From Gaiellaceae bacterium (GTDB taxonomy: Bacteria; Actinomycetota; Thermoleophilia; Gaiellales; Gaiellaceae): DNA of 25,663 nucleotides. The DNA lies in contig DASYFU010000175.1 of NCBI GenBank assembly GCA_036498225.1, positions 1-25,663 of the forward strand. Direction: 5' to 3'. The stretch's first letter is position 1; each line of letters opens with the position of its first letter. Positions 15,295 through 23,762 of this stretch are shown piece after piece. The notes beneath the pieces are model-generated. The model did no database searches. It was not told the origin of the DNA and was given only the letters and a program-made list of their open reading frames with translations. A program made the translations under genes and the position numbers.

Positions 15295-16173
15295 GTGCTC
15301 CCGCTCGAGAGCGTCCCGAACTTCTCCGAAGGCCGCGATACCGCGGTGATCGCCGAAATCGGTGATGCGCTCGCGCGCTACGCACGGCTGCTGGACGTCC
15401 ATGCGGACGCCGACCACAACCGGTCGGTCTTCACCATCGTCGGCGACGAGGCCGCGATCGTCGATGCGCTTCTCGCCGGCATTGCGGTCGCGCAGGAGCG
15501 CATCGACCTCCGCGGGCACGAGGGAGTGCATCCCCGCATCGGCGCCGCCGACGTCGTCCCCGTGATCGCGATACGTCCCGAGGATGCCGAGCTCGCACGG
15601 GAGACAGCTCGGATCGCCGCCGAGCGCATCGGCAACGAGCTCGAGCTCCCGGTCTTCCTGTACGGCGAGGTCGGCGACGGACGCGCGCCCGCGTTCTTCC
15701 GTCGCGGCGGGACGGACGAGCTGCAACGCCGCATCGACGAAGGCGAGCTTGCGCCGGACTTCGGCCCGCCGCGGCTCGATCCGGCAGCGGGGGGCGTCAT
15801 CGTCGGCGCGCGCCGGCCGCTCATCGCCTTCAACGTCAACCTCGCGCACGCCGACGTCGATGCGGCGCGGGAGATCGCCCGCGTCGTGCGCGAGCGCGAC
15901 GGCGGCTTTCCCGGCGTTCGCGCGCTCGGGCTCGAACTGCCTCAGGCGGGCCACGCGCAGATCAGCATGAACGTCGAGGACTGGGAAGCGGCGGCGCTGC
16001 ACGACATCGTCGCTGCGATCGAGCGCGAGGCGGCCGCGCGTGGCGTCGAGCTCGCGGGCGCCGAGCTCGTCGGGCTCATGCCGGCGGGTGCGGCCGCCGC
16101 CGCGGCCGGCGCGCTGTTGCGCATCCAGGGCTTCGACGCGTCACACGTTCTCGAGCTGCGCCTGCTCGAGTAG
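15295..16173 (+). CDS. ftcd: Glutamate formimidoyltransferase (stand-alone FT domain)
   Basis: LESVPNFSEGRD, DADHNRSVFT, GVHPRIGAADVVP, GARRPLIAFNVNL, QISMN. Confidence 0.93.
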   Translation: MLPLESVPNFSEGRDTAVIAEIGDALARYARLLDVHADADHNRSVFTIVGDEAAIVDALLAGIAVAQERIDLRGHEGVHPRIGAADVVPVIAIRPEDAELARETARIAAERIGNELELPVFLYGEVGDGRAPAFFRRGGTDELQRRIDEGELAPDFGPPRLDPAAGGVIVGARRPLIAFNVNLAHADVDAAREIARVVRERDGGFPGVRALGLELPQAGHAQISMNVEDWEAAALHDIVAAIEREAAARGVELAGAELVGLMPAGAAAAAAGALLRIQGFDASHVLELRLLE

Positions 16174-16842
16174 CGCGCGACCGACGACGGCGCCCTCGAG
16201 GCCGAGCCCGGCGAGCGCACCCAGGTCCCCCTTGCTGCGGACGCCGCCGGCCGCCAGGACGGGGCCTCCGAAGCGGCGCGCGACACGCCCCATCAGCACG
16301 AGGTCGGGACCGGCGAGCGTCCCGTCCCGGTCGATCGCCGTGCAGAGGAGCCGCGCGACGCCCGCGGCGACGCACCGGTCGACCGCGTCGTCGACGGAGA
16401 GCCCGCTGCCGTGCTCCCAGCCGCGGACGCGCACCTCGCCGTCGCGGACGTCGACGGCGACGACGAGCCGGTCGCCGAGCGCGTCGACGTACGCCTCCGG
16501 GCCTTGCTCGAACGCGGCCGTCCCCACGATGACGCGCGCAGCCCCGGCGCCGAGGAGCGCGTACGCGTCGGCCGGGCTGCGCACGCCGCCGCCGAGCTGG
16601 AGCGGAACAGGGTCGATCGCGGCTGCGAGGCTGCGCGTCAGCTCGATCGGGGCGCCGCCGTCCCGAGCGGCATGGAGGACGACGACGTGGAGCAGGGGAG
16701 GGCGCGCCCGGGCAAAGCGCCGTGCGAGCTCCACGGGATCGCCGGCTTCACGCGCAACCGCGTCGAAGTCGCCCTTCTCGAGCCTGACGGCCCGGCCGTC
16801 GAGGACGTCCACGGCGGGTATGAGTTGAAAGCCTTGCTGCAC
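16141..16842 (-). CDS. hisA: ProFAR isomerase HisA
   Basis: LIPAVDVLDGRAVRLEKG, LQLGGGVR, RVIVGTAA, VAVD, TAIDRDGTLAGPD, AAGGV, VVGRAL. Confidence 0.92.
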   Translation of the reverse strand: MQQGFQLIPAVDVLDGRAVRLEKGDFDAVAREAGDPVELARRFARARPPLLHVVVLHAARDGGAPIELTRSLAAAIDPVPLQLGGGVRSPADAYALLGAGAARVIVGTAAFEQGPEAYVDALGDRLVVAVDVRDGEVRVRGWEHGSGLSVDDAVDRCVAAGVARLLCTAIDRDGTLAGPDLVLMGRVARRFGGPVLAAGGVRSKGDLGALAGLGLEGAVVGRALLEQAQLENV

Positions 16843-16862: not shown

Positions 16863-17156
16863 ATGGAGCCACGACATTGGCCGACAAAGGAACATCGAGA
16901 CCTCTTCGAGACGGTCGCCTCGCTCCGGACGAAGGAGGAGGCGCAGCGCTTCCTCCGGGATCTCTGCACGCGGGCGGAGCTGGACGCGATGGCGCACCGC
17001 TGGCAGGTGGCGCGGCTCCTGGACGAGGGTCTGCCGTACCTGGAGGTGGCGCGCAAGGCGCACGCCTCGACGACGACGGTGACGCGCGTCGCGCAGTGGC
17101 TGCGCCGCGGCGAGGGCGGGTACCGGCTGGCGCTCCAGCGGCGGCGAAAATCCTGA
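16863..17156 (+). CDS. TrpR-like YerC/YecD family regulator (probable HisR)
   Basis: FLRDLCTRAELDAMAHRWQVARLL...YLEVARKAHASTTTVTRVAQWLRRGEGGY, the YerC/YecD signature; first gene of the his operon. Confidence 0.9.
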   Translation: MEPRHWPTKEHRDLFETVASLRTKEEAQRFLRDLCTRAELDAMAHRWQVARLLDEGLPYLEVARKAHASTTTVTRVAQWLRRGEGGYRLALQRRRKS

Positions 17157-17983
17157 AGATCGCCGTCCCCTCGAAGGGCCGCCTGCGCGATCCCGCGATC
17201 GCGCTCCTCGAGGACGCCGGCCTCGGCCCGGAGACGCCCGGCGACCGCGCGCTCGCGTTCCCGTGCCGGAACGCGCCGGTCGAGGCGCTCCTTGTGCGCG
17301 CGGACGACATCCCGGAGTACGTGCAGGACGGCGTCGTCGACTGTGGCATCACCGGCCTCGACATCGTGCGCGAACGCGGCGCGAACGTCACCGAGCTGCA
17401 GACGCTCGGCTTCGGGGCCTGCACCCTCGAGGTCGCCGTCCAGGAGGAGTCGGACGTCGGCGCGCCGGACCAGCTCGACGGCGCGCGCATCGCGACGAGC
17501 TTCCCCCGCCTCGCCCGCGAGCTCATGCCGGTCTCGATCGAGCTCGTCGACGTGCACGGCTCGGTCGAGCTCGCCCCGCGCCTGGGCCTCGCCGACGCGA
17601 TCGTCGACCTCGTCTCGAGCGGGAGCACCTTGCGCACGAACGGGCTGCGTTCGATCGGCGTGCTGCTCGCCTCGGAGGCCGTTCTCATCGGGCCGCCCGA
17701 GCCGCGGGACGACGCGGTGCAGCTCGCGGGCGTGTTCCGGAGCGTCGTCGACGCGCGCGCGACGCGCTATCTGATGTTGAACGCGCACGAGGATTCGCTG
17801 GAGGCGATCTGCGCGCTCGTGCCCGGCTCGCGCGCGCCGAGCGTGCTGCCGCTGTCGGAGCCGGGGATGGTGGCCGTGCACAGCCTCGTTCCGGCCGCGG
17901 ACATCTGGCGCTTGCTGCCCGAGCTCGAGGCCGCGGGTGCGTCGTCGATTCTTCTCGTCCCCGTCGAGCGCATGCTCGGATGA
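17153..17983 (+). CDS. hisG: ATP phosphoribosyltransferase, long form (start probably CTG 17153; alternative GTG 17096)
   Basis: LKIAVPSKGRL, VRADDIPEYVQDGVVDCGITGLD, GSVELAPRLGLADAIVDLVSSGSTLRTNGL, plus C-terminal regulatory domain. Confidence 0.94.
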   Translation: MKIAVPSKGRLRDPAIALLEDAGLGPETPGDRALAFPCRNAPVEALLVRADDIPEYVQDGVVDCGITGLDIVRERGANVTELQTLGFGACTLEVAVQEESDVGAPDQLDGARIATSFPRLARELMPVSIELVDVHGSVELAPRLGLADAIVDLVSSGSTLRTNGLRSIGVLLASEAVLIGPPEPRDDAVQLAGVFRSVVDARATRYLMLNAHEDSLEAICALVPGSRAPSVLPLSEPGMVAVHSLVPAADIWRLLPELEAAGASSILLVPVERMLG

Positions 17984-18954
17984 CGATCGTCGAAGACGTG
18001 AAGGCGCGCGGCGAGGAGGCCGTGCGCGAATGGGCGCTGCAGCTCGACGGCGTCGAGCCCGCGCGCGCGGAGCCGGACGGCGAGCTGCCCGAGGAAGCCA
18101 TCCTTGCACTCGCCGATCGCGTGCGCCGCTGGCACGAGGCGCAGCGGCCGGCCGACGTGCGGCTCGAGGTCGAGCCGGGCGTGCAGCTCGAACGCCGGTG
18201 GGTGCCGCTCGACTCCGTCGGCGTGTACGTGCCGCGCGGTCTCGTCTCGACGCTCGTCATGTGCGCGGTGCCTGCGCAGGTCGCAGGCGTGCGCCGGATC
18301 GTCGTGTGCACGCCGCCCGACGGCGCGGGCCTCGTCGCCCGCGCCGCGGAGCTGCTCGGGATCGACGAGGTCTGGGCGCTCGGCGGCCCGCAGGCGATCG
18401 GATACCTCGCGTACGTCGCGCGCGTGGACAAGATCGTCGGTCCCGGCGGCCCGTACGTGAACGACGCGAAGCTCGAGGTCGCGCGCGACGTCGCGATCGA
18501 CCTTCCCGCTGGTCCGTCCGAGGTGGTCGTCGTCCTCGGCGCGGGCGGCGACCGCCGGCTCGCGGAGCTCGAGCTCGCCGCGCAGGCCGAGCACGGCCAC
18601 GAGGCGGTCTGCCGCATCGTGGCCACGCTCGAGGAGGCTGAGGCGCTCGCGCCCGAGCATCTTGTGCTCCTCGGCGATGCCGAAGCACTTGCGCCGCGGG
18701 TCCGCAACGCCGGCGCGGTGTTCGTGGGCGAGTGGTCGCCCGTTCCGAGCGGCGATCTCGGAACAGGCGCCAATCACGTTCTCCCCACGGGCGGCTGGGC
18801 GCGCTCGGTCGGCGGCCTCGGCCTCGAGACGTTCATGAAGCCGATCACGATCCAGCGGCTGACGCAGGAGGGGCTCGAGCGCGTGCGGCCGACGGTCGAG
18901 GCGCTCGCCGCCGTCGAGGGACTGCCTGCGCACGCGGCAGCGGTGCGGCGATGA
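17980..18954 (+). CDS. hisD: Histidinol dehydrogenase, shortened (324 aa)
   Basis: VKARG, SVGVYVP, GGPQAI, DKIVGPG, IDLPAGPSEV, QAEHG, APEHL, GD..GANHVLPT, AHAAAV. Confidence 0.92.
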   Translation: MTIVEDVKARGEEAVREWALQLDGVEPARAEPDGELPEEAILALADRVRRWHEAQRPADVRLEVEPGVQLERRWVPLDSVGVYVPRGLVSTLVMCAVPAQVAGVRRIVVCTPPDGAGLVARAAELLGIDEVWALGGPQAIGYLAYVARVDKIVGPGGPYVNDAKLEVARDVAIDLPAGPSEVVVVLGAGGDRRLAELELAAQAEHGHEAVCRIVATLEEAEALAPEHLVLLGDAEALAPRVRNAGAVFVGEWSPVPSGDLGTGANHVLPTGGWARSVGGLGLETFMKPITIQRLTQEGLERVRPTVEALAAVEGLPAHAAAVRR

Positions 18955-20462
18955 GAGCGCTCGGCGCTGGGTTCCAGATGTACGGCTGGGCGCCGTCGAC
19001 GGCGGAGCTCGCGCACCGCGCAGGTCTCGATCCGGTCGAGATCCTGCGCTTCGACGGCAACGTGCCGGCGCTGCCGCTCCCGACGTCACGGCCGGCGGCG
19101 ATCGCATCTGCGCTCGCGCGCGTGAACGAGTATCCGCACGGCGGGTATCCCGACATCCATGAGGCGATCGCCGGGTACGCCGGCGTCGAGCCCGAGAACG
19201 TCGTGCTCGGCGCAGGCGCCGACGACCTGATCATGCTCGTCGCGCGCGCCTACGCGGGCGCGGGGGACACCGTCTCCGTTCCCGAGTCGCCGACGTATCC
19301 GCTCTTCCGCATCGCCGCCCAGCTCGCCGGCGCCGACGTGGGCGACGACGAGCCCGTGTTGACGTTTGCGTGTCGGCCGGCGAACCCGACCGGTGCGCTC
19401 GAGGCGATTCCCTCGGCGCGGCCGCTCGCCGTCGACGAGGCGTACTTCGAGTACGCCGACGACCCAGGTGCGGTCGGCCTGATCGACGACGACGTGGTCG
19501 TCATCCGAACGTTCTCGAAGCTCTTCGCCCTCGCGGGCGCACGCATTGGCTACGCGCTCGCCTCGCGCGAGGTCGCCGCGGAGCTGAACGCACGGCAAGC
19601 TCCTGCGCAGGTTTCGACGCTGTCGGTCGCGCTCGCGCTCGCGGCGCTCGCGTCGCCACCCGATGTCCGGCCGGTGATCGAGGAGCGAGAGCGACTTGCG
19701 ACCGAGCTGCGCACGCTCGGGTACGAGCCCGTCGCCTCCCGCGCGAACTTCGTCTACGTCCCGGTGGACGATCCCGAGTCGGTCGGCGACCGGCTGCTCG
19801 CGGCCGGCTGCGTCGTCCGCGTGTTCGAGAGCGCCGTGCGTATCTCGGTACGCGACCGCGAGGACGACGACGTGCTGCTCGCCGCGCTCGCAGGCGAGCC
19901 GCCGTCGCAGGGGCGTCGGAGTCGTCACGTGCGCTCGACCGTCGAGACGACGCTCCGCGTACGGCTCACGCTGGACGGCGCCAGCCGCGTGCGCGTCGCG
20001 ACAGGCTCAGGGTTGTACGACCACTTCTTCGAGCAGCTCGCATTCCACGCCGGCTTCGACCTCGTGCTCGAGGGCAGCGGCGATCTCGAGACGGGGGACC
20101 ATCACACGGCAGAGGACGCGGCCATCGCGCTCGGCGAGGCGTTCGACCTGGCGCTCGGCGACCGCAAGGGAATCGCGCGCTACGGCGACGCGGTCGTCGT
20201 CATGGACGACGCCCGCGCGAGCGCGGCCGTCGACCTGGGCGGCCGGCGCCACACGAGCATCGTGCTCGAGCACGACCCCGGGCTCGCGAAGCACACGCTC
20301 ACGAGCTTCGCCGACAACGCACGCATCGCACTGCACGTCGAGGCGACCGGCGACGACCCGCATCACGTCGCCGAGGCGGCGTTCAAGGCGACGGGGCGCG
20401 CGCTGCGCGCCGCGATCCGGAGTGAGGGCGACGTGCTCCCGTCGACGAAGGGCGTGATGTGA
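18951..20462 (+). CDS. hisC: Fused histidinol-phosphate aminotransferase / imidazoleglycerol-phosphate dehydratase (HisC-HisB), 503 aa
   Basis: N-terminal DEAY, NPTG and RTFSKLFALAGARIGY (PLP Lys); C-terminal (from about 19914) DHHTAED, HHVAEAAFKA and PSTKG; no stop codon between the domains. Confidence 0.92.
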   Translation: MRALGAGFQMYGWAPSTAELAHRAGLDPVEILRFDGNVPALPLPTSRPAAIASALARVNEYPHGGYPDIHEAIAGYAGVEPENVVLGAGADDLIMLVARAYAGAGDTVSVPESPTYPLFRIAAQLAGADVGDDEPVLTFACRPANPTGALEAIPSARPLAVDEAYFEYADDPGAVGLIDDDVVVIRTFSKLFALAGARIGYALASREVAAELNARQAPAQVSTLSVALALAALASPPDVRPVIEERERLATELRTLGYEPVASRANFVYVPVDDPESVGDRLLAAGCVVRVFESAVRISVRDREDDDVLLAALAGEPPSQGRRSRHVRSTVETTLRVRLTLDGASRVRVATGSGLYDHFFEQLAFHAGFDLVLEGSGDLETGDHHTAEDAAIALGEAFDLALGDRKGIARYGDAVVVMDDARASAAVDLGGRRHTSIVLEHDPGLAKHTLTSFADNARIALHVEATGDDPHHVAEAAFKATGRALRAAIRSEGDVLPSTKGVM

Positions 20463-20992
20463 CGACGGTCGCGATCGCGCGCTACGGCGCCGGCAACGTC
20501 CGCTCGGTCGAGCTCGGCGTGCGCCGGCTCGGCGCTGAGGTGATCGACGACCTCGAGGCCGCCGATCTCGCGGTGCTGCCCGGAGTCGGCTCGGCGCGGT
20601 CGGCGATGGAGGGCCTGGGCGCGTCGGCAGACATCCTCCGCGCACGCCACGAGGATGGGCGAGCGATTCTCGGCATCTGCCTCGGCCTCCAGCTCGCGCT
20701 CGACGAGAGCGAGGAGGACGGCGGCGTCGTGGGGCTCGGGCTCGTGCCAGGCCGCGCGGTGCGCCTCGAGGCCGAACGCGTCCCGCGCATCGGCTGGGCG
20801 CACGTCGAGCCGGGCGGCGAGGCGTACTGGTTCGCGCACTCGTACGAAGCCGTGACCGAGTCGACCGTGGCCACGAGCGAGGGCCACGCCGCCGTCGTCG
20901 AGCACGGCTCGTTCGTCGGCGTGCAGTTCCATCCCGAGAAGAGCGGCGCTGCAGGCAGCCGCTTTCTGGAGCAATGCCTCTCCCGCGTCTGA
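20459..20992 (+). CDS. hisH: IGP synthase glutamine amidotransferase subunit
   Basis: [21 protein letters not shown] (catalytic Cys), PRIGW, FAHSY, QFHPEKS. Confidence 0.95.
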
Positions 20993-21708
20993 TCCCGTGC
21001 CTCGACGTCGCCGGCGGGCGCGTCGTCAAGGGCGTGCGCTTCCGTCAGCTGCGCGATGTCGGCGACCCCGTCGAGCTCGGCGCGGCGTACTCCGACGGCG
21101 GCGCGGACGAACTCGTCTTCCTCGACATCTCTGCGACGGTGACGTCGACTGCGGCCGCAGCTGCCGTCGCGGCCCAGGTCGCCGAGCACGTGACCATCCC
21201 GTTCACGTTCGGCGGAGGGATCCGCACGGTCGACGACGCAACGTCGCTGCTCGAGGCGGGCGCCGACAAGATCAGCGTGAACTCGGCGGCGCTCGCACGG
21301 CCAGACTTGATCGAGGAGCTTGCGCGTGCTCTCGGCAGCCAGGCCGTTGTCGTCGCCATCGACACCGAGGGCGGGCGCGTCCGCTCGCATGCGGCGACGC
21401 GCGACGCCGCGCGCGACACCGTCGAATGGGCGAAGGAGTGCGAACAGCGCGGTGCAGGCGAGCTGCTCGTCACGTCGATCGATCGCGACGGCACGCAGGA
21501 CGGGTACGACCTCGAACAGCTCGCCGCGCTGAGCGACGCCGTCTCGCTTCCGGTCATCGCGTCGGGCGGTGCCGGCAGCGCGCACCATGTAGCGGACGCG
21601 CTCGAGGTGTCGCAGGCCGCGCTCCTCGCGTCCATCCTGCACGAGGATCCGGCCCGGCTCGTCTCGCTGCGCACGGAGCTGAAGGAGCTGGGCGTATGCC
21701 TCCGCTGA
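20974..21708 (+). CDS. hisF: IGP synthase cyclase subunit
   Basis: [68 protein letters not shown]. Confidence 0.96.
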
Positions 21709-22247: not shown

Positions 22248-23762
22248 GTGCCTCCGGTCGCGCTCACCGGCGACGACCTGACCGTCGCCGACGTCTGGGA
22301 CGTCGCCGTCGAACGACGGCCCACCGAGCTCACCGATGCCGCGCGCGCCAGGATGCGCGCCGCCCGCGAGGTCGTCGAGCGCGCAGCGCACGGCGCCCGT
22401 GAGCACACGTACGGCGTCAACACGGGCTTCGGCCGCTTCGTCTCGCGCTCGATTCCCGAGGAGCTGACCGAGGAGTTGCAGCTGCGCCTCCTGCGCTCGC
22501 ACGCGTGCGGCGTGGGCGAGCCGTATCCGGACGAGATCGTGCGCGCAGCGATGCTCCTTCGTGCGAACACGCTCGCGAAGGGGAACTCCGGTGCGCGCGT
22601 CGAGACCGTCGAGCTCGTGCTCGCGTGCCTCGACCGCGGCGTCGTTCCGGTCGTGCCTGCGCGCGGAAGCGTCGGGGCATCCGGCGATCTCGCACCGCTC
22701 GCGCATCTCGCGCTTCCGCTCGTCGGCGAGGGCGAGGCGTTTATCGACGGTGAGCGCGTCCCGGGCCTCGAAGCGCTGACCCGCGTCGGGCTCGAGCCCG
22801 TGCAACTCGAGGCAAAGGAAGGGCTGTCGCTCATCAACGGGACGCAGTTCATGGCCGCGTACTGCGCGCTCGGTCTCGTGCGGGCGCGGCGGCTCGCGCA
22901 TGCCGCCGACGTCGCGTGCGCGCAGTCGCTCGAGGCACTGCAGGGATCGCGCACGTCGTTCCTGCCGGAGATCCACGCGCTCCGGCCTCTGCGCGGGCAG
23001 ACGGCGTCCGCCGCGCATGTGCTCGAGTTGCTCGACGGCTCCGCGATCATCGAATCGCACCGCTGGTGTGACAAGGTGCAGGACGCGTACTCGCTCCGTT
23101 GCGCGCCGCAGGTGCATGGCGCGTCGCGCGACCTGCTCGACTACATCGACTACACGATCTCGGTCGAGCTGAACGCCGCGACCGACAATCCGCTCGTCCT
23201 CGTCGAGGAAGACGCGCTCGTCTCGAACGGCAACTTCCACGGCCAGCCGCTCGCATTCGCGCTCGACGTCATGGCGATGGCCGTCGCCGAGCTCGCGTCG
23301 ATCTCGGAGCGTCGTGTCGAGCGCCTCGTGAACCCGAACCTGTCCGACGGCCTGCCCGCGTTCCTCACGAGCGAGGGCGGGCTCAACAGCGGGTTCATGA
23401 TTCCCCAGTACGTGGCCGCATCGCTCGTCTCCGAGAACAAGGTGCTCGCGCATCCGGCGTCGGTGGATTCGATCCCGACGAGCGCCGGGCAGGAGGATCA
23501 CGTGTCGATGGGCAACGCAGCTGGGCTGAAGGTGTGGCAGGTGCTCGCGAACTGCGAGAGCGCGCTCGCCATCGAGCTGCTCGCCGGCGCGCAGGGCGTC
23601 GAGTTCCTCGCGCCGCTCGAGCCCGGAGTCGGCGTGCGCGCTGCGCGTGCGTTCGTCCGGGAGCTCTCGCCGCGACTGAAGGACGACCGCTCTCTCGCTC
23701 CCGACATCGAAGCAGTGGCTGCGGCGATTCGCAACGGCTCGCTCGAGAAGGCCGTCGCGTGA
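22248..23762 (+). CDS. hutH: Histidine ammonia-lyase
   Basis: [32 protein letters not shown] (MIO-forming ASG), [33 protein letters not shown]. Confidence 0.97.

What the first reader, a model, noticed from the sequence alone, without database searches (positions are those of the whole stretch)
18951..20462. HisC-HisB(IGPD) fusion joining two consecutive pathway steps
Seen: one uninterrupted 503-aa frame holds an aminotransferase (DEAY, RTFSK) and, after the short linker LAGEPPSQG, a complete IGP dehydratase (HHxxED, HHxxEAxFKA, PSTKG). There is no relic stop or ATG at the junction. Known: IGPD makes imidazole acetol-phosphate, the substrate of HisC. The textbook his fusions are hisNB, hisIE, eukaryotic hisHF and HIS4; I do not recall this one among them. 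IGPD is a Mn-dependent 24-mer and HisC a dimer. Inference: the fusion could build a very large cage decorated with aminotransferase dimers and channel the intermediate.
Basis: partly seen in the sequence, partly recalled or inferred. Interest (0 to 1): 0.75.

Follow-up and report, generated by a model that had tools for sequence, protein, structure and literature searches.

The report
Fused HisC-IGPD histidine biosynthesis enzyme
One gene in this soil actinobacterium's histidine operon really does encode two consecutive pathway enzymes (the dehydratase IGPD and the aminotransferase HisC) as a single 503-residue protein; the fusion is genuine and conserved, but it is common in sequence databases across several phyla, though apparently never studied at the bench.

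Summary
Window 18951-20462 (+) is one uninterrupted 503-codon frame: a HisC-type aminotransferase (aa 1-314), an 8-residue linker and a complete IGP dehydratase (aa 323-503).

It is not an assembly artefact. Contigs from other soil metagenomes bridge the junction without indels. The same fusion, in the same operon (hisA | hisG-hisD-hisCB-hisH-hisF-hisIE), is present in 21 relatives I read through, at 39-72% identity. All catalytic motifs of both halves are invariant.

The fusion is not rare. At least 51 of the 150 best 50%-identity clusters are full HisC-IGPD fusions. Named examples come from Alpha- and Gammaproteobacteria (including cultured Steroidobacter denitrificans) and Planctomycetota. 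Larger relatives exist (HisC-HAD-IGPD, also in an amoeba; HisD-HisC-IGPD; HisD-HisC-HAD-IGPD).

Quick trees suggest several origins. This scan has already noted the architecture in at least 25 other genomes. No paper I could search describes it, and reviews of his fusions do not list hisC.

A HisC-type dimer is predicted, probably by likeness to solved HisC dimers. The decorated-cage and channelling idea remains untested inference.

Verdict: a real, conserved bifunctional enzyme; an uncharacterised variant of a known kind; moderate interest.

The parts
18951..20462 (+). hisCB: single ORF of 503 aa encoding the HisC-IGPD fusion (stop codon 20460-20462)
   Evidence: More than 120 database clusters of about 503 aa carry both Pfam domains at 71-91% identity and 100% coverage.
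18951..19892 (+). HisC domain (aa 1-314), a short-type class-II aminotransferase. PLP lysine is K190 (codon 19518-19520); D162, N145 and R198 are also present.
   Evidence: Pfam and NCBIfam. Fold matches solved and predicted HisC proteins. Catalytic motifs are invariant in alignment A1. The predicted dimer interface lies entirely within aa 10-228.
19893..19916 (+). Linker (aa 315-322, EPPSQGRR) between the last HisC helix and the first IGPD strand
   Evidence: AF2 model: helix 303-314, strand 323-329, pLDDT about 77-83. Linker length varies from 8 to about 25 residues among relatives.
19917..20459 (+). IGPD domain (aa 323-503). Candidate metal ligands are H358, H384, H385, E388, H448, H471, H472 and E475; the C-terminal PSTKG is present.
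   Evidence: Pfam covers the full-length profile. It is 45-50% identical to solved IGPDs 6fwh and 4gqu. The listed residues are invariant in A1.
16141..16842 (-). hisA, divergently transcribed
   Evidence: PF00977, 190 bits
16877..17983 (+). Open frame holding hisG (long form; HisG and HisG_C domains at aa 141-364; true start uncertain, probably near 17140)
   Evidence: Pfam
17980..18954 (+). hisD (324 aa, short form)
   Evidence: PF00815, 320 bits
20459..20992 (+). hisH
   Evidence: PF00117; conserved synteny
20974..21708 (+). hisF
   Evidence: PF00977, 239 bits
21696..22238 (+). hisIE fusion
   Evidence: PF01502 and PF01503

Best explanation
hisCB encodes a bifunctional enzyme for steps 6 and 7 of histidine biosynthesis. 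The C-terminal IGPD domain dehydrates imidazoleglycerol phosphate to imidazole acetol phosphate. The N-terminal PLP-dependent HisC domain transaminates that product to histidinol phosphate. The order HisC then IGPD mirrors the usual hisC-hisB gene order, so the fusion most simply arose when adjacent, translationally coupled genes lost their boundary. It has been kept throughout the window's order (Gaiellales-like Actinomycetota), where it is the operon's only hisC and hisB. Both domains presumably keep their native oligomers: a HisC dimer and a Mn-dependent IGPD oligomer whose N-termini face outward. The assured benefit is fixed 1:1 co-expression and proximity. True channelling is possible but unproven. 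Shown here: the gene, its conservation, the intact motifs, the operon context and the wide distribution. Inferred: both activities, the oligomeric state and any kinetic advantage.
For: - The frame is uninterrupted and carries both Pfam domains.
- Independent metagenome contigs bridge the junction without indels.
- 20 relatives from four families of the order, plus G398, carry the same single frame in the same operon at 39-72% identity.
- 77 columns are invariant in A1, including the PLP Lys (K190), D162, the NPTG Asn and all His/Glu of both IGPD metal motifs.
- The IGPD half is 45-50% identical to solved IGPDs. The HisC half has the HisC fold, TM by hit 0.70-0.78.
- The only other IGPD-family gene in the genome lacks the metal ligands. 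Same-genus genomes without the fusion also lack hisA and hisF. The fusion is therefore tied to the working pathway.
- A homodimer through the HisC half is predicted: ipSAE 0.87, best control 0.00; the mark was reached by 21 of 30 solved homodimers and 0 of 23 monomers; runs share at least 86% of contacts; partner pLDDT at least 86. Solved HisC dimers exist, so this pass may only show likeness.
- The N-terminal sheet of IGPD forms the outer surface of the 24-mer (PMC10978614).
Against: - No enzymatic, expression or structural data exist for this or any HisC-IGPD fusion that I could find.
- Both halves score below the NCBIfam equivalog cut-offs: hisC 175.7 versus 276.55 bits, HisB 176.2 versus 231 bits.
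- The HisC half is unusually short (about 315 aa) and its N-terminal NENP-type motif reads FDGN.
- A second HisC-like gene on contig C114 fits the hisC model better per residue.
- The window's clade lacks an 8-residue IGPD loop that other fusions keep, and the effect on assembly is unknown.
- An 8-residue linker may constrain forming HisC dimers and an IGPD 24-mer at the same time. This was not testable here.
Confidence: 0.85

Rival explanations
1. Decorated cage with channelling. The IGPD domains form the 24-mer core with 432 symmetry. The 24 HisC domains pair into 12 dimers on its surface, and imidazole acetol phosphate passes directly from one active site to the other.
For: The N-terminal sheet of IGPD lies on the outside of the 24-mer (PMC10978614). 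HisN-IGPD in E. coli is a precedent for an N-terminal fusion partner (from general knowledge). A HisC-type dimer is predicted in the fusion context (0.87 versus 0.00; 21 of 30 solved homodimers versus 0 of 23 monomers reached the mark; at least 86% of contacts shared; pLDDT at least 86; may reflect likeness to solved HisC dimers). The short linker holds the domains close, and the AF2 model has pTM 0.78. Fusions of this pair have arisen repeatedly.
Against: Nothing here tests a 24-mer, the geometry of 12 dimers on it, or kinetics. Repeated fusion is also expected simply because hisC and hisB are adjacent in many operons. In the predicted dimer no IGPD residue is in the interface. An 8-residue linker may be too short to satisfy both symmetries.
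Confidence: 0.3
2. Only the IGPD half is catalytic. The HisC half would be a scaffold or have another activity (for example CobD-like), and the real HisC would be the paralog on contig C114.
For: The fused HisC half scores below the hisC equivalog cut-off and also matches CobD TIGR01140 at 138.6 bits. The C114 gene scores 210.9 bits over only 254 model positions. An earlier scan note reports a dead HisC domain fused to HisB in Brevundimonas (e1-5226398, not checked here).
Against: The PLP Lys, the Asp, the NPTG Asn and the phosphate-binding Arg are invariant over 20 fusions down to 39% identity. The best fold and sequence matches are HisC proteins. Same-genus genomes that lack the whole his operon still keep a 37-39% identical HisC-like gene, apparently the C114 type, so that paralog is not tied to histidine synthesis.
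Confidence: 0.08
3. The fusion is an assembly or sequencing artefact: a lost stop codon or frameshift in a fragmented metagenome-assembled genome.
For: The genome is a MAG of 455 contigs with 6.6% contamination. One apparent fusion elsewhere (G350) has a run of N at its junction.
Against: More than 120 independent clusters have the same length and both domains. 21 relatives were read through without a stop. Contigs from other studies cross the junction without indels.
Confidence: 0.02

Closest known systems
HisNB, the bifunctional HisB of E. coli and Salmonella (histidinol-phosphatase fused to IGPD; NCBIfam NF003937)
   Same: IGPD is the C-terminal domain and carries another histidine-pathway enzyme on its N-terminus. 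The fusion came from neighbouring his genes. The window protein matches the IGPD part of NF003937 (profile positions 164-355).
   Different: The N-terminal partner here is a PLP aminotransferase (step 7, an obligate dimer), not a HAD phosphatase (step 8). No HAD domain is present. HisNB is characterised; this fusion is not.
Uncharacterised HisC-IGPD fusions of Proteobacteria and Planctomycetota (for example Steroidobacter denitrificans, which UniRef names 'Multifunctional fusion protein'; Robiginitomaculum PHR61060.1; Phycisphaerales NRA58372.1)
   Same: The domain order and content are the same (PF00155 then PF00475) with a short linker.
   Different: Those proteins are 535-605 aa with a full-size HisC. 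They are only 25-36% identical to the window's HisC half and 37-48% identical to its IGPD half. In the HisC tree the main group forms its own clade, 96 SH-aLRT. The window's form is the smallest seen, at 503 aa.
Stand-alone HisC (TIGR01141; for example T. maritima 1h1c, M. tuberculosis Rv1600 and Rv3772) and stand-alone IGPD (for example M. tuberculosis 4gqu, 6fwh)
   Same: Fold, catalytic motifs and a predicted HisC-type dimer are the same.
   Different: Here the two are covalently joined, and both halves are trimmed: HisC is about 315 aa and IGPD lacks an 8-residue loop.
Larger his multi-enzyme fusions: HIS4 (hisIE-hisD), HIS7 (hisHF) and the Acanthamoeba heptafunctional protein (PMC6029752)
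   Same: All join several histidine-pathway steps on one polypeptide.
   Different: None of the published ones includes HisC or IGPD.

Membership tests
HisC, histidinol-phosphate aminotransferase (class-II aminotransferase; PF00155, TIGR01141) | Schiff-base lysine in the (S/T)-x-S-K motif, plus the PLP-binding Asp and the NPTG Asn | tested here: met
   K190 (RTFSK), D162 (DEAY) and N145 (ANPTG) are present. K190 and D162 are invariant and N145 nearly so in 20 fusions.
HisC, histidinol-phosphate aminotransferase (class-II aminotransferase; PF00155, TIGR01141) | Score above the curated family cut-off | tested here: inconclusive
   Pfam PF00155 scores 94.3 bits, above its 19.7 cut-off. The NCBIfam equivalog TIGR01141 scores 175.7 bits, below its 276.55 cut-off. 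CobD TIGR01140 also hits at 138.6 bits.
HisC, histidinol-phosphate aminotransferase (class-II aminotransferase; PF00155, TIGR01141) | HisC fold and homodimer with a shared active site | tested here: met
   The top Foldseek hits are all HisC or close kin, TM by hit 0.70-0.78. A dimer is predicted through aa 10-228: score 0.87, best control 0.00; 21 of 30 solved homodimers versus 0 of 23 monomers reached the mark; at least 86% of contacts shared; pLDDT at least 86. This may reflect likeness to solved HisC dimers.
HisC, histidinol-phosphate aminotransferase (class-II aminotransferase; PF00155, TIGR01141) | Histidinol-phosphate / imidazole-acetol-phosphate transaminase activity | not testable with these tools
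   Only operon context and motif conservation speak for it.
IGPD, imidazoleglycerol-phosphate dehydratase (PF00475) | Full-length match above the Pfam cut-off | tested here: met
   140.4 bits against a cut-off of 27, covering profile positions 1-144 of 144. The NCBIfam HisB equivalogs fall below their cut-offs (176.2 versus 231 bits).
IGPD, imidazoleglycerol-phosphate dehydratase (PF00475) | Two Mn-binding His/Glu motifs (D-x-H-H-x-x-E and H-H-x-x-E) plus the further His ligands and the C-terminal STKG | tested here: met
   H358, H384, H385, E388, H448, H471, H472, E475 and S498-K500-G501 are invariant in A1. The assignment of these residues as ligands rests on my knowledge of solved IGPDs.
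IGPD, imidazoleglycerol-phosphate dehydratase (PF00475) | Mn-dependent 24-mer with 432 symmetry | not testable with these tools
   The size limit of the complex predictor excludes it, and no model coordinates were available for docking.
HisNB-type bifunctional HisB (NF003937) | N-terminal HAD (DDDD) histidinol-phosphatase domain | tested here: not met
   No HAD domain is found. Only profile positions 164-355 of NF003937 match.
HisC-IGPD fusion architecture (PF00155 followed by PF00475 on one chain) | Both domains in one uninterrupted frame, in that order, in a his gene context | tested here: met
   The architecture is shared with at least 51 of the top 150 representative clusters.

The most novel reading that the evidence does not exclude
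The 503-residue protein is a minimal, self-assembling two-enzyme particle. An octahedral IGPD core would display 12 HisC dimers held by 8-residue tethers and hand imidazole acetol phosphate directly from dehydratase to aminotransferase. That would be a natural example of a symmetric cage scaffolding the next pathway enzyme, and it would explain why this gene pair has fused repeatedly in bacteria and in an amoeba.
Probability: 0.25. Interest if true: 0.6.

Novelty: new variant of a known kind. Interest (0 to 1): 0.4.

Why it matters
Histidine biosynthesis is the textbook model for pathway evolution by gene fusion. The published catalogue of fused his genes omits hisC (PMC1963479, PMC10138114).

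- **Catalogue.** This fusion and its larger relatives carry up to four consecutive steps on one chain, so the catalogue is incomplete.
- **Structure.** It is a natural test case for how an obligate dimer and a 24-mer coexist on one polypeptide.
- **Kinetics.** It would show whether proximity alone improves flux through an unstable keto-phosphate intermediate.
- **Annotation.** These proteins are usually labelled only 'histidinol-phosphate transaminase' or only 'HisB'. Pathway reconstruction from MAGs can then wrongly score the other step as missing.

It is not a new kind of system, and the architecture is frequent in databases.

Tried and rejected
- **Long frames in sister orders.** Long open frames (540-690 aa) around stand-alone IGPD genes in sister orders looked like further fusions. 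Translation showed Arg-rich out-of-frame readings of the upstream gene, and each IGPD has its own Met start.
- **G350.** This apparent fusion has a run of N at the junction and is not counted.
- **Other Actinomycetota.** Phylum-level matches spanning both halves contain stop codons, so they are adjacent genes and not fusions.
- **Literature.** Five full-text searches and readings of seven papers found no description of a natural hisC-hisB(IGPD) fusion. The library lacks most subscription journals, so this is not proof of absence.
- **Solved and reviewed structures.** Swiss-Prot AlphaFold and PDB fold searches returned only single-domain HisC hits. PDB sequence search likewise found no two-domain entry.
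- **RNA evidence.** No RNA holder was listed among the sequencing runs, so expression was not assessed.
- **Source-like run X1.** No single Logan contig spans 19908-19952. The junction is bridged by runs X2 and X4 instead.
- **Internal translation start.** An internal start for a free IGPD (GGAG-N7-GTG, 19918-19931) was considered. The codon is not conserved as a start in relatives, so I did not adopt it, but it is not excluded.
- **HisR gene.** My Pfam scan of one frame (window 16867-17082) found nothing.
- **Geometry.** Docking HisC dimers onto an IGPD 24-mer could not be attempted, because model coordinates are not exposed and the complex predictor is limited to 1000 residues.
Full report
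**1. The observation**

Window 18951-20462 (+) is a single open frame of 503 codons. Pfam finds an Aminotran_1_2 domain covering roughly aa 20-313 and a full-length IGPD domain at aa 351-485. NCBIfam's best models are HisB/IGPD (176 bits) and hisC TIGR01141 (175.7 bits). Both lie below the strict equivalog cut-offs, so both halves are divergent.

The gene is translationally coupled on both sides. Its ATG overlaps the hisD stop (ATGA) and its stop overlaps the hisH GTG (GTGA).

**2. Not an artefact**

The genome is a fragmented MAG: 455 contigs, 88.8% complete, 6.6% contamination. Three lines of evidence rule out an artefact.

- A protein search returned more than 120 clusters of about 503 aa with both Pfam domains, 71-91% identical over 100% of the query. 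They come from JGI, ENA and NCBI assemblies, and several are named Gaiellaceae.
- Logan contigs from other soil metagenome studies cross the junction without any indel. X2 record 12 covers 19646-20207 and X4 record 27 covers 19764-19932.
- I extracted the homologous frame from 20 genomes of the same order plus one further actinobacterium (G398). All are uninterrupted.

**3. Context and distribution in the lineage**

The operon is hisA (divergent, 16141-16842) | hisG-hisD-hisCB-hisH-hisF-hisIE, followed by hutH. The same order, with hisC and IGPD in one frame, recurs in families f1, f2, f3 and f5 of the order at 39-72% identity.

- In the four f4 genomes searched (78-88% complete) the fusion was not found.
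- Elsewhere in the class, the sampled genomes have a stand-alone IGPD with its own Met. No HisC hit lies within about 2.5 kb upstream in the eight I inspected.
- In a 300-genome sample of the phylum, the only other true fusion was G398, at 54% identity with the same operon. The other spanning matches contain stops, or an N-run in G350.
- Five same-genus genomes (75-95% complete) lack the fusion. They also have no HisA/HisF match above cut-off. The fusion therefore travels with the working pathway, and some members of the genus appear to lack histidine synthesis.

**4. Are both halves functional?**

In a 20-sequence alignment reaching down to 39% identity (A1), 77 columns are invariant. They include:

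- D162, Y165 and K190 of HisC, with N145 nearly invariant;
- R186, T187, S189 and R198 of HisC;
- H358, H384, H385, E388, D389, H448, H471, H472 and E475 of IGPD;
- the C-terminal S-x-K-G of IGPD.

The IGPD half is 45-50% identical to solved IGPDs. An AlphaFold2 model has mean pLDDT 86.3 and pTM 0.78. The last HisC helix ends at residue 314 and the first IGPD strand starts at 323, so the linker is only 8 residues. The C-terminal 10 residues are of low confidence in the model.

Foldseek places aa 1-315 on HisC proteins in both Swiss-Prot models and the PDB. No reviewed or solved entry covers both halves.

The only other IGPD-family gene in the genome (contig C348, 172 aa) has lost most metal ligands. 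It cannot replace the fused IGPD.

A second HisC-like gene (C114, partial) fits the hisC model well. However, genomes that lack the his operon keep a 37-39% identical HisC-like gene, apparently of the same type. That paralog is therefore probably a general or aromatic aminotransferase.

**5. Oligomer**

Two copies of aa 4-503 are predicted to form a symmetric dimer through the HisC half only (interface aa 10-228).

- Score 0.87, best of three controls 0.00.
- The mark was reached by 21 of 30 proteins solved as homodimers and 0 of 23 solved as monomers.
- Runs share at least 86% of contacts; partner pLDDT is at least 86.

HisC dimers are solved, so this pass may only reflect likeness.

The plant IGPD cryo-EM paper states that the N-terminal sheet forms the external surface of the 24-mer (PMC10978614). 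An N-terminal partner would therefore sit outside, as the HAD domain does in HisNB. Whether 12 HisC dimers fit on a 24-mer with 8-residue tethers could not be tested.

**6. How common is the architecture?**

An exhaustive HMMER search of 1.84 billion cluster representatives gave 358 proteins at E <= 1e-30. Of the best 150, at least 51 are full-length HisC-IGPD fusions. Most are only 25-36% identical in the HisC half and 37-48% in the IGPD half.

Source names include Steroidobacter denitrificans (cultured; UniRef 'Multifunctional fusion protein'), Steroidobacteraceae, Rhodospirillales, Candidatus Puniceispirillum and Alphaproteobacteria. Cluster look-ups added Robiginitomaculum and Phycisphaerales.

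Larger relatives exist:

- HisC-HAD-IGPD (P0204, P0213, P0225, P0265); P0265 is from the amoeba Mastigamoeba balamuthi;
- HisD-HisC-IGPD (P0203, 1001 aa);
- HisD-HisC-HAD-IGPD (P0217, 1401 aa).

This scan had already noted HisC-IGPD fusions in at least 25 other genomes, with similar verdicts from follow-up agents.

**7. Origins**

Both trees are quick IQ-TREE runs (LG+C20, SH-aLRT support).

- **IGPD half.** The Gaiellales-type fusions form a clade (95) nested in a strongly supported group (99). That group also holds the Phycisphaerales-type fusions and several HAD-containing fusions. It does not hold the unfused IGPDs of sister Thermoleophilia and other Actinomycetota, which group together (87).
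- **HisC half.** The Gaiellales clade (99) is sister (85) to unfused actinobacterial HisC. It is separate from the main proteobacterial fusion clade (96) and from the Phycisphaerales group.

The two halves thus appear to have different histories, and the fusion as a class is polyphyletic.

Caveats: support is SH-aLRT only, the trees are midpoint-rooted, and no unfused sequences from other phyla were included. I treat 'several independent origins' as likely, not shown.

Stand-alone short HisC paralogs (L044-L046, 54-60% identical) nest inside the window's fusion subclade (99). They look like duplicates that lost the IGPD part.

**8. Literature**

[quoted passage not shown] The IGPD structural paper mentions only IGPD+HPP fusions. 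The Acanthamoeba heptafunctional protein lacks HisC and IGPD. Targeted term searches found nothing on a natural HisC-IGPD fusion.

**9. Verdict**

This is a real, conserved, very probably bifunctional enzyme for steps 6 and 7. It is a compact member of an uncharacterised but widespread fusion architecture.

Its implied rarity is wrong, and its cage and channelling mechanism remains an attractive but untested inference.

Noticed in passing
G000 contig C348; locus L002 1435-1953 (+): There is a second, 172-aa IGPD-family gene (Pfam 90 bits) that has lost most metal ligands: HHTAED reads AEAEVAEA, DH reads DS, and HH..E reads QH..D. It lies between murA and a RidA-like gene. Same-size, roughly 35% identical copies occur in many same-genus genomes, including those with no his operon, so it looks like a conserved IGPD-like pseudoenzyme with a role outside histidine synthesis.
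   Followed up: partly
Genomes G012, G002, G018, G113, G020 (same genus, 75-95% complete): No HisA/HisF match above cut-off and no fusion were found. Only the IGPD-like paralog and a distant HisC-like gene are present. Histidine biosynthesis may be present or absent among species of one genus.
   Followed up: partly
L044 3989-4942 (-), L045 3986-4936 (-), L046 3622-4581 (+): These are stand-alone short HisC paralogs (about 317 aa, 54-60% identical to the fused HisC half) away from any his gene. In the HisC tree they nest inside the window's fusion subclade, suggesting duplication with loss of the IGPD part. G015 carries both the fusion and this paralog.
   Followed up: partly
Proteins P0217 (1401 aa), P0203 (1001 aa), P0204/P0213/P0225/P0265 (760-860 aa): Larger his fusions exist in metagenomes: HisD-HisC-HAD-IGPD (four enzymes on one chain), HisD-HisC-IGPD and HisC-HAD-IGPD. 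The source names P0265 as from the amoeba Mastigamoeba balamuthi (EukProt).
   Followed up: partly
window 18951-20462 and 17980-18954: The proteins here are systematically trimmed. HisC is about 315 aa and lacks two segments that other fusions have. IGPD lacks an 8-residue loop after about aa 440 that most relatives keep. HisD is only 324 aa. The deletions are shared by the window's subclade.
   Followed up: partly
L009-L016 (sister orders of the class): In these genomes the IGPD gene has no hisC within about 2.5 kb upstream; the upstream frame looks like hisD but this was not checked. The long open frames there are high-GC chance frames, not fusions.
   Followed up: partly
window 19918-19931: GGAG followed 7 nt later by an in-frame GTG lies right at the start of the IGPD domain, so a free IGPD could in principle also be translated. 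The codon is not conserved as a start in relatives.
   Followed up: partly
G000 whole genome: No histidinol-phosphate phosphatase was identified. Only weak IMPase-family hits (49 bits, cut-off 275) and a weak PHP-family hit (43 bits, cut-off 90) were found in this 89%-complete MAG.
   Followed up: partly
window 22248-23762 (+): hutH (histidine ammonia-lyase, PF00221, 636 bits) starts 9 nt after the hisIE stop on the same strand. Biosynthetic and catabolic histidine genes are therefore contiguous.
   Followed up: no
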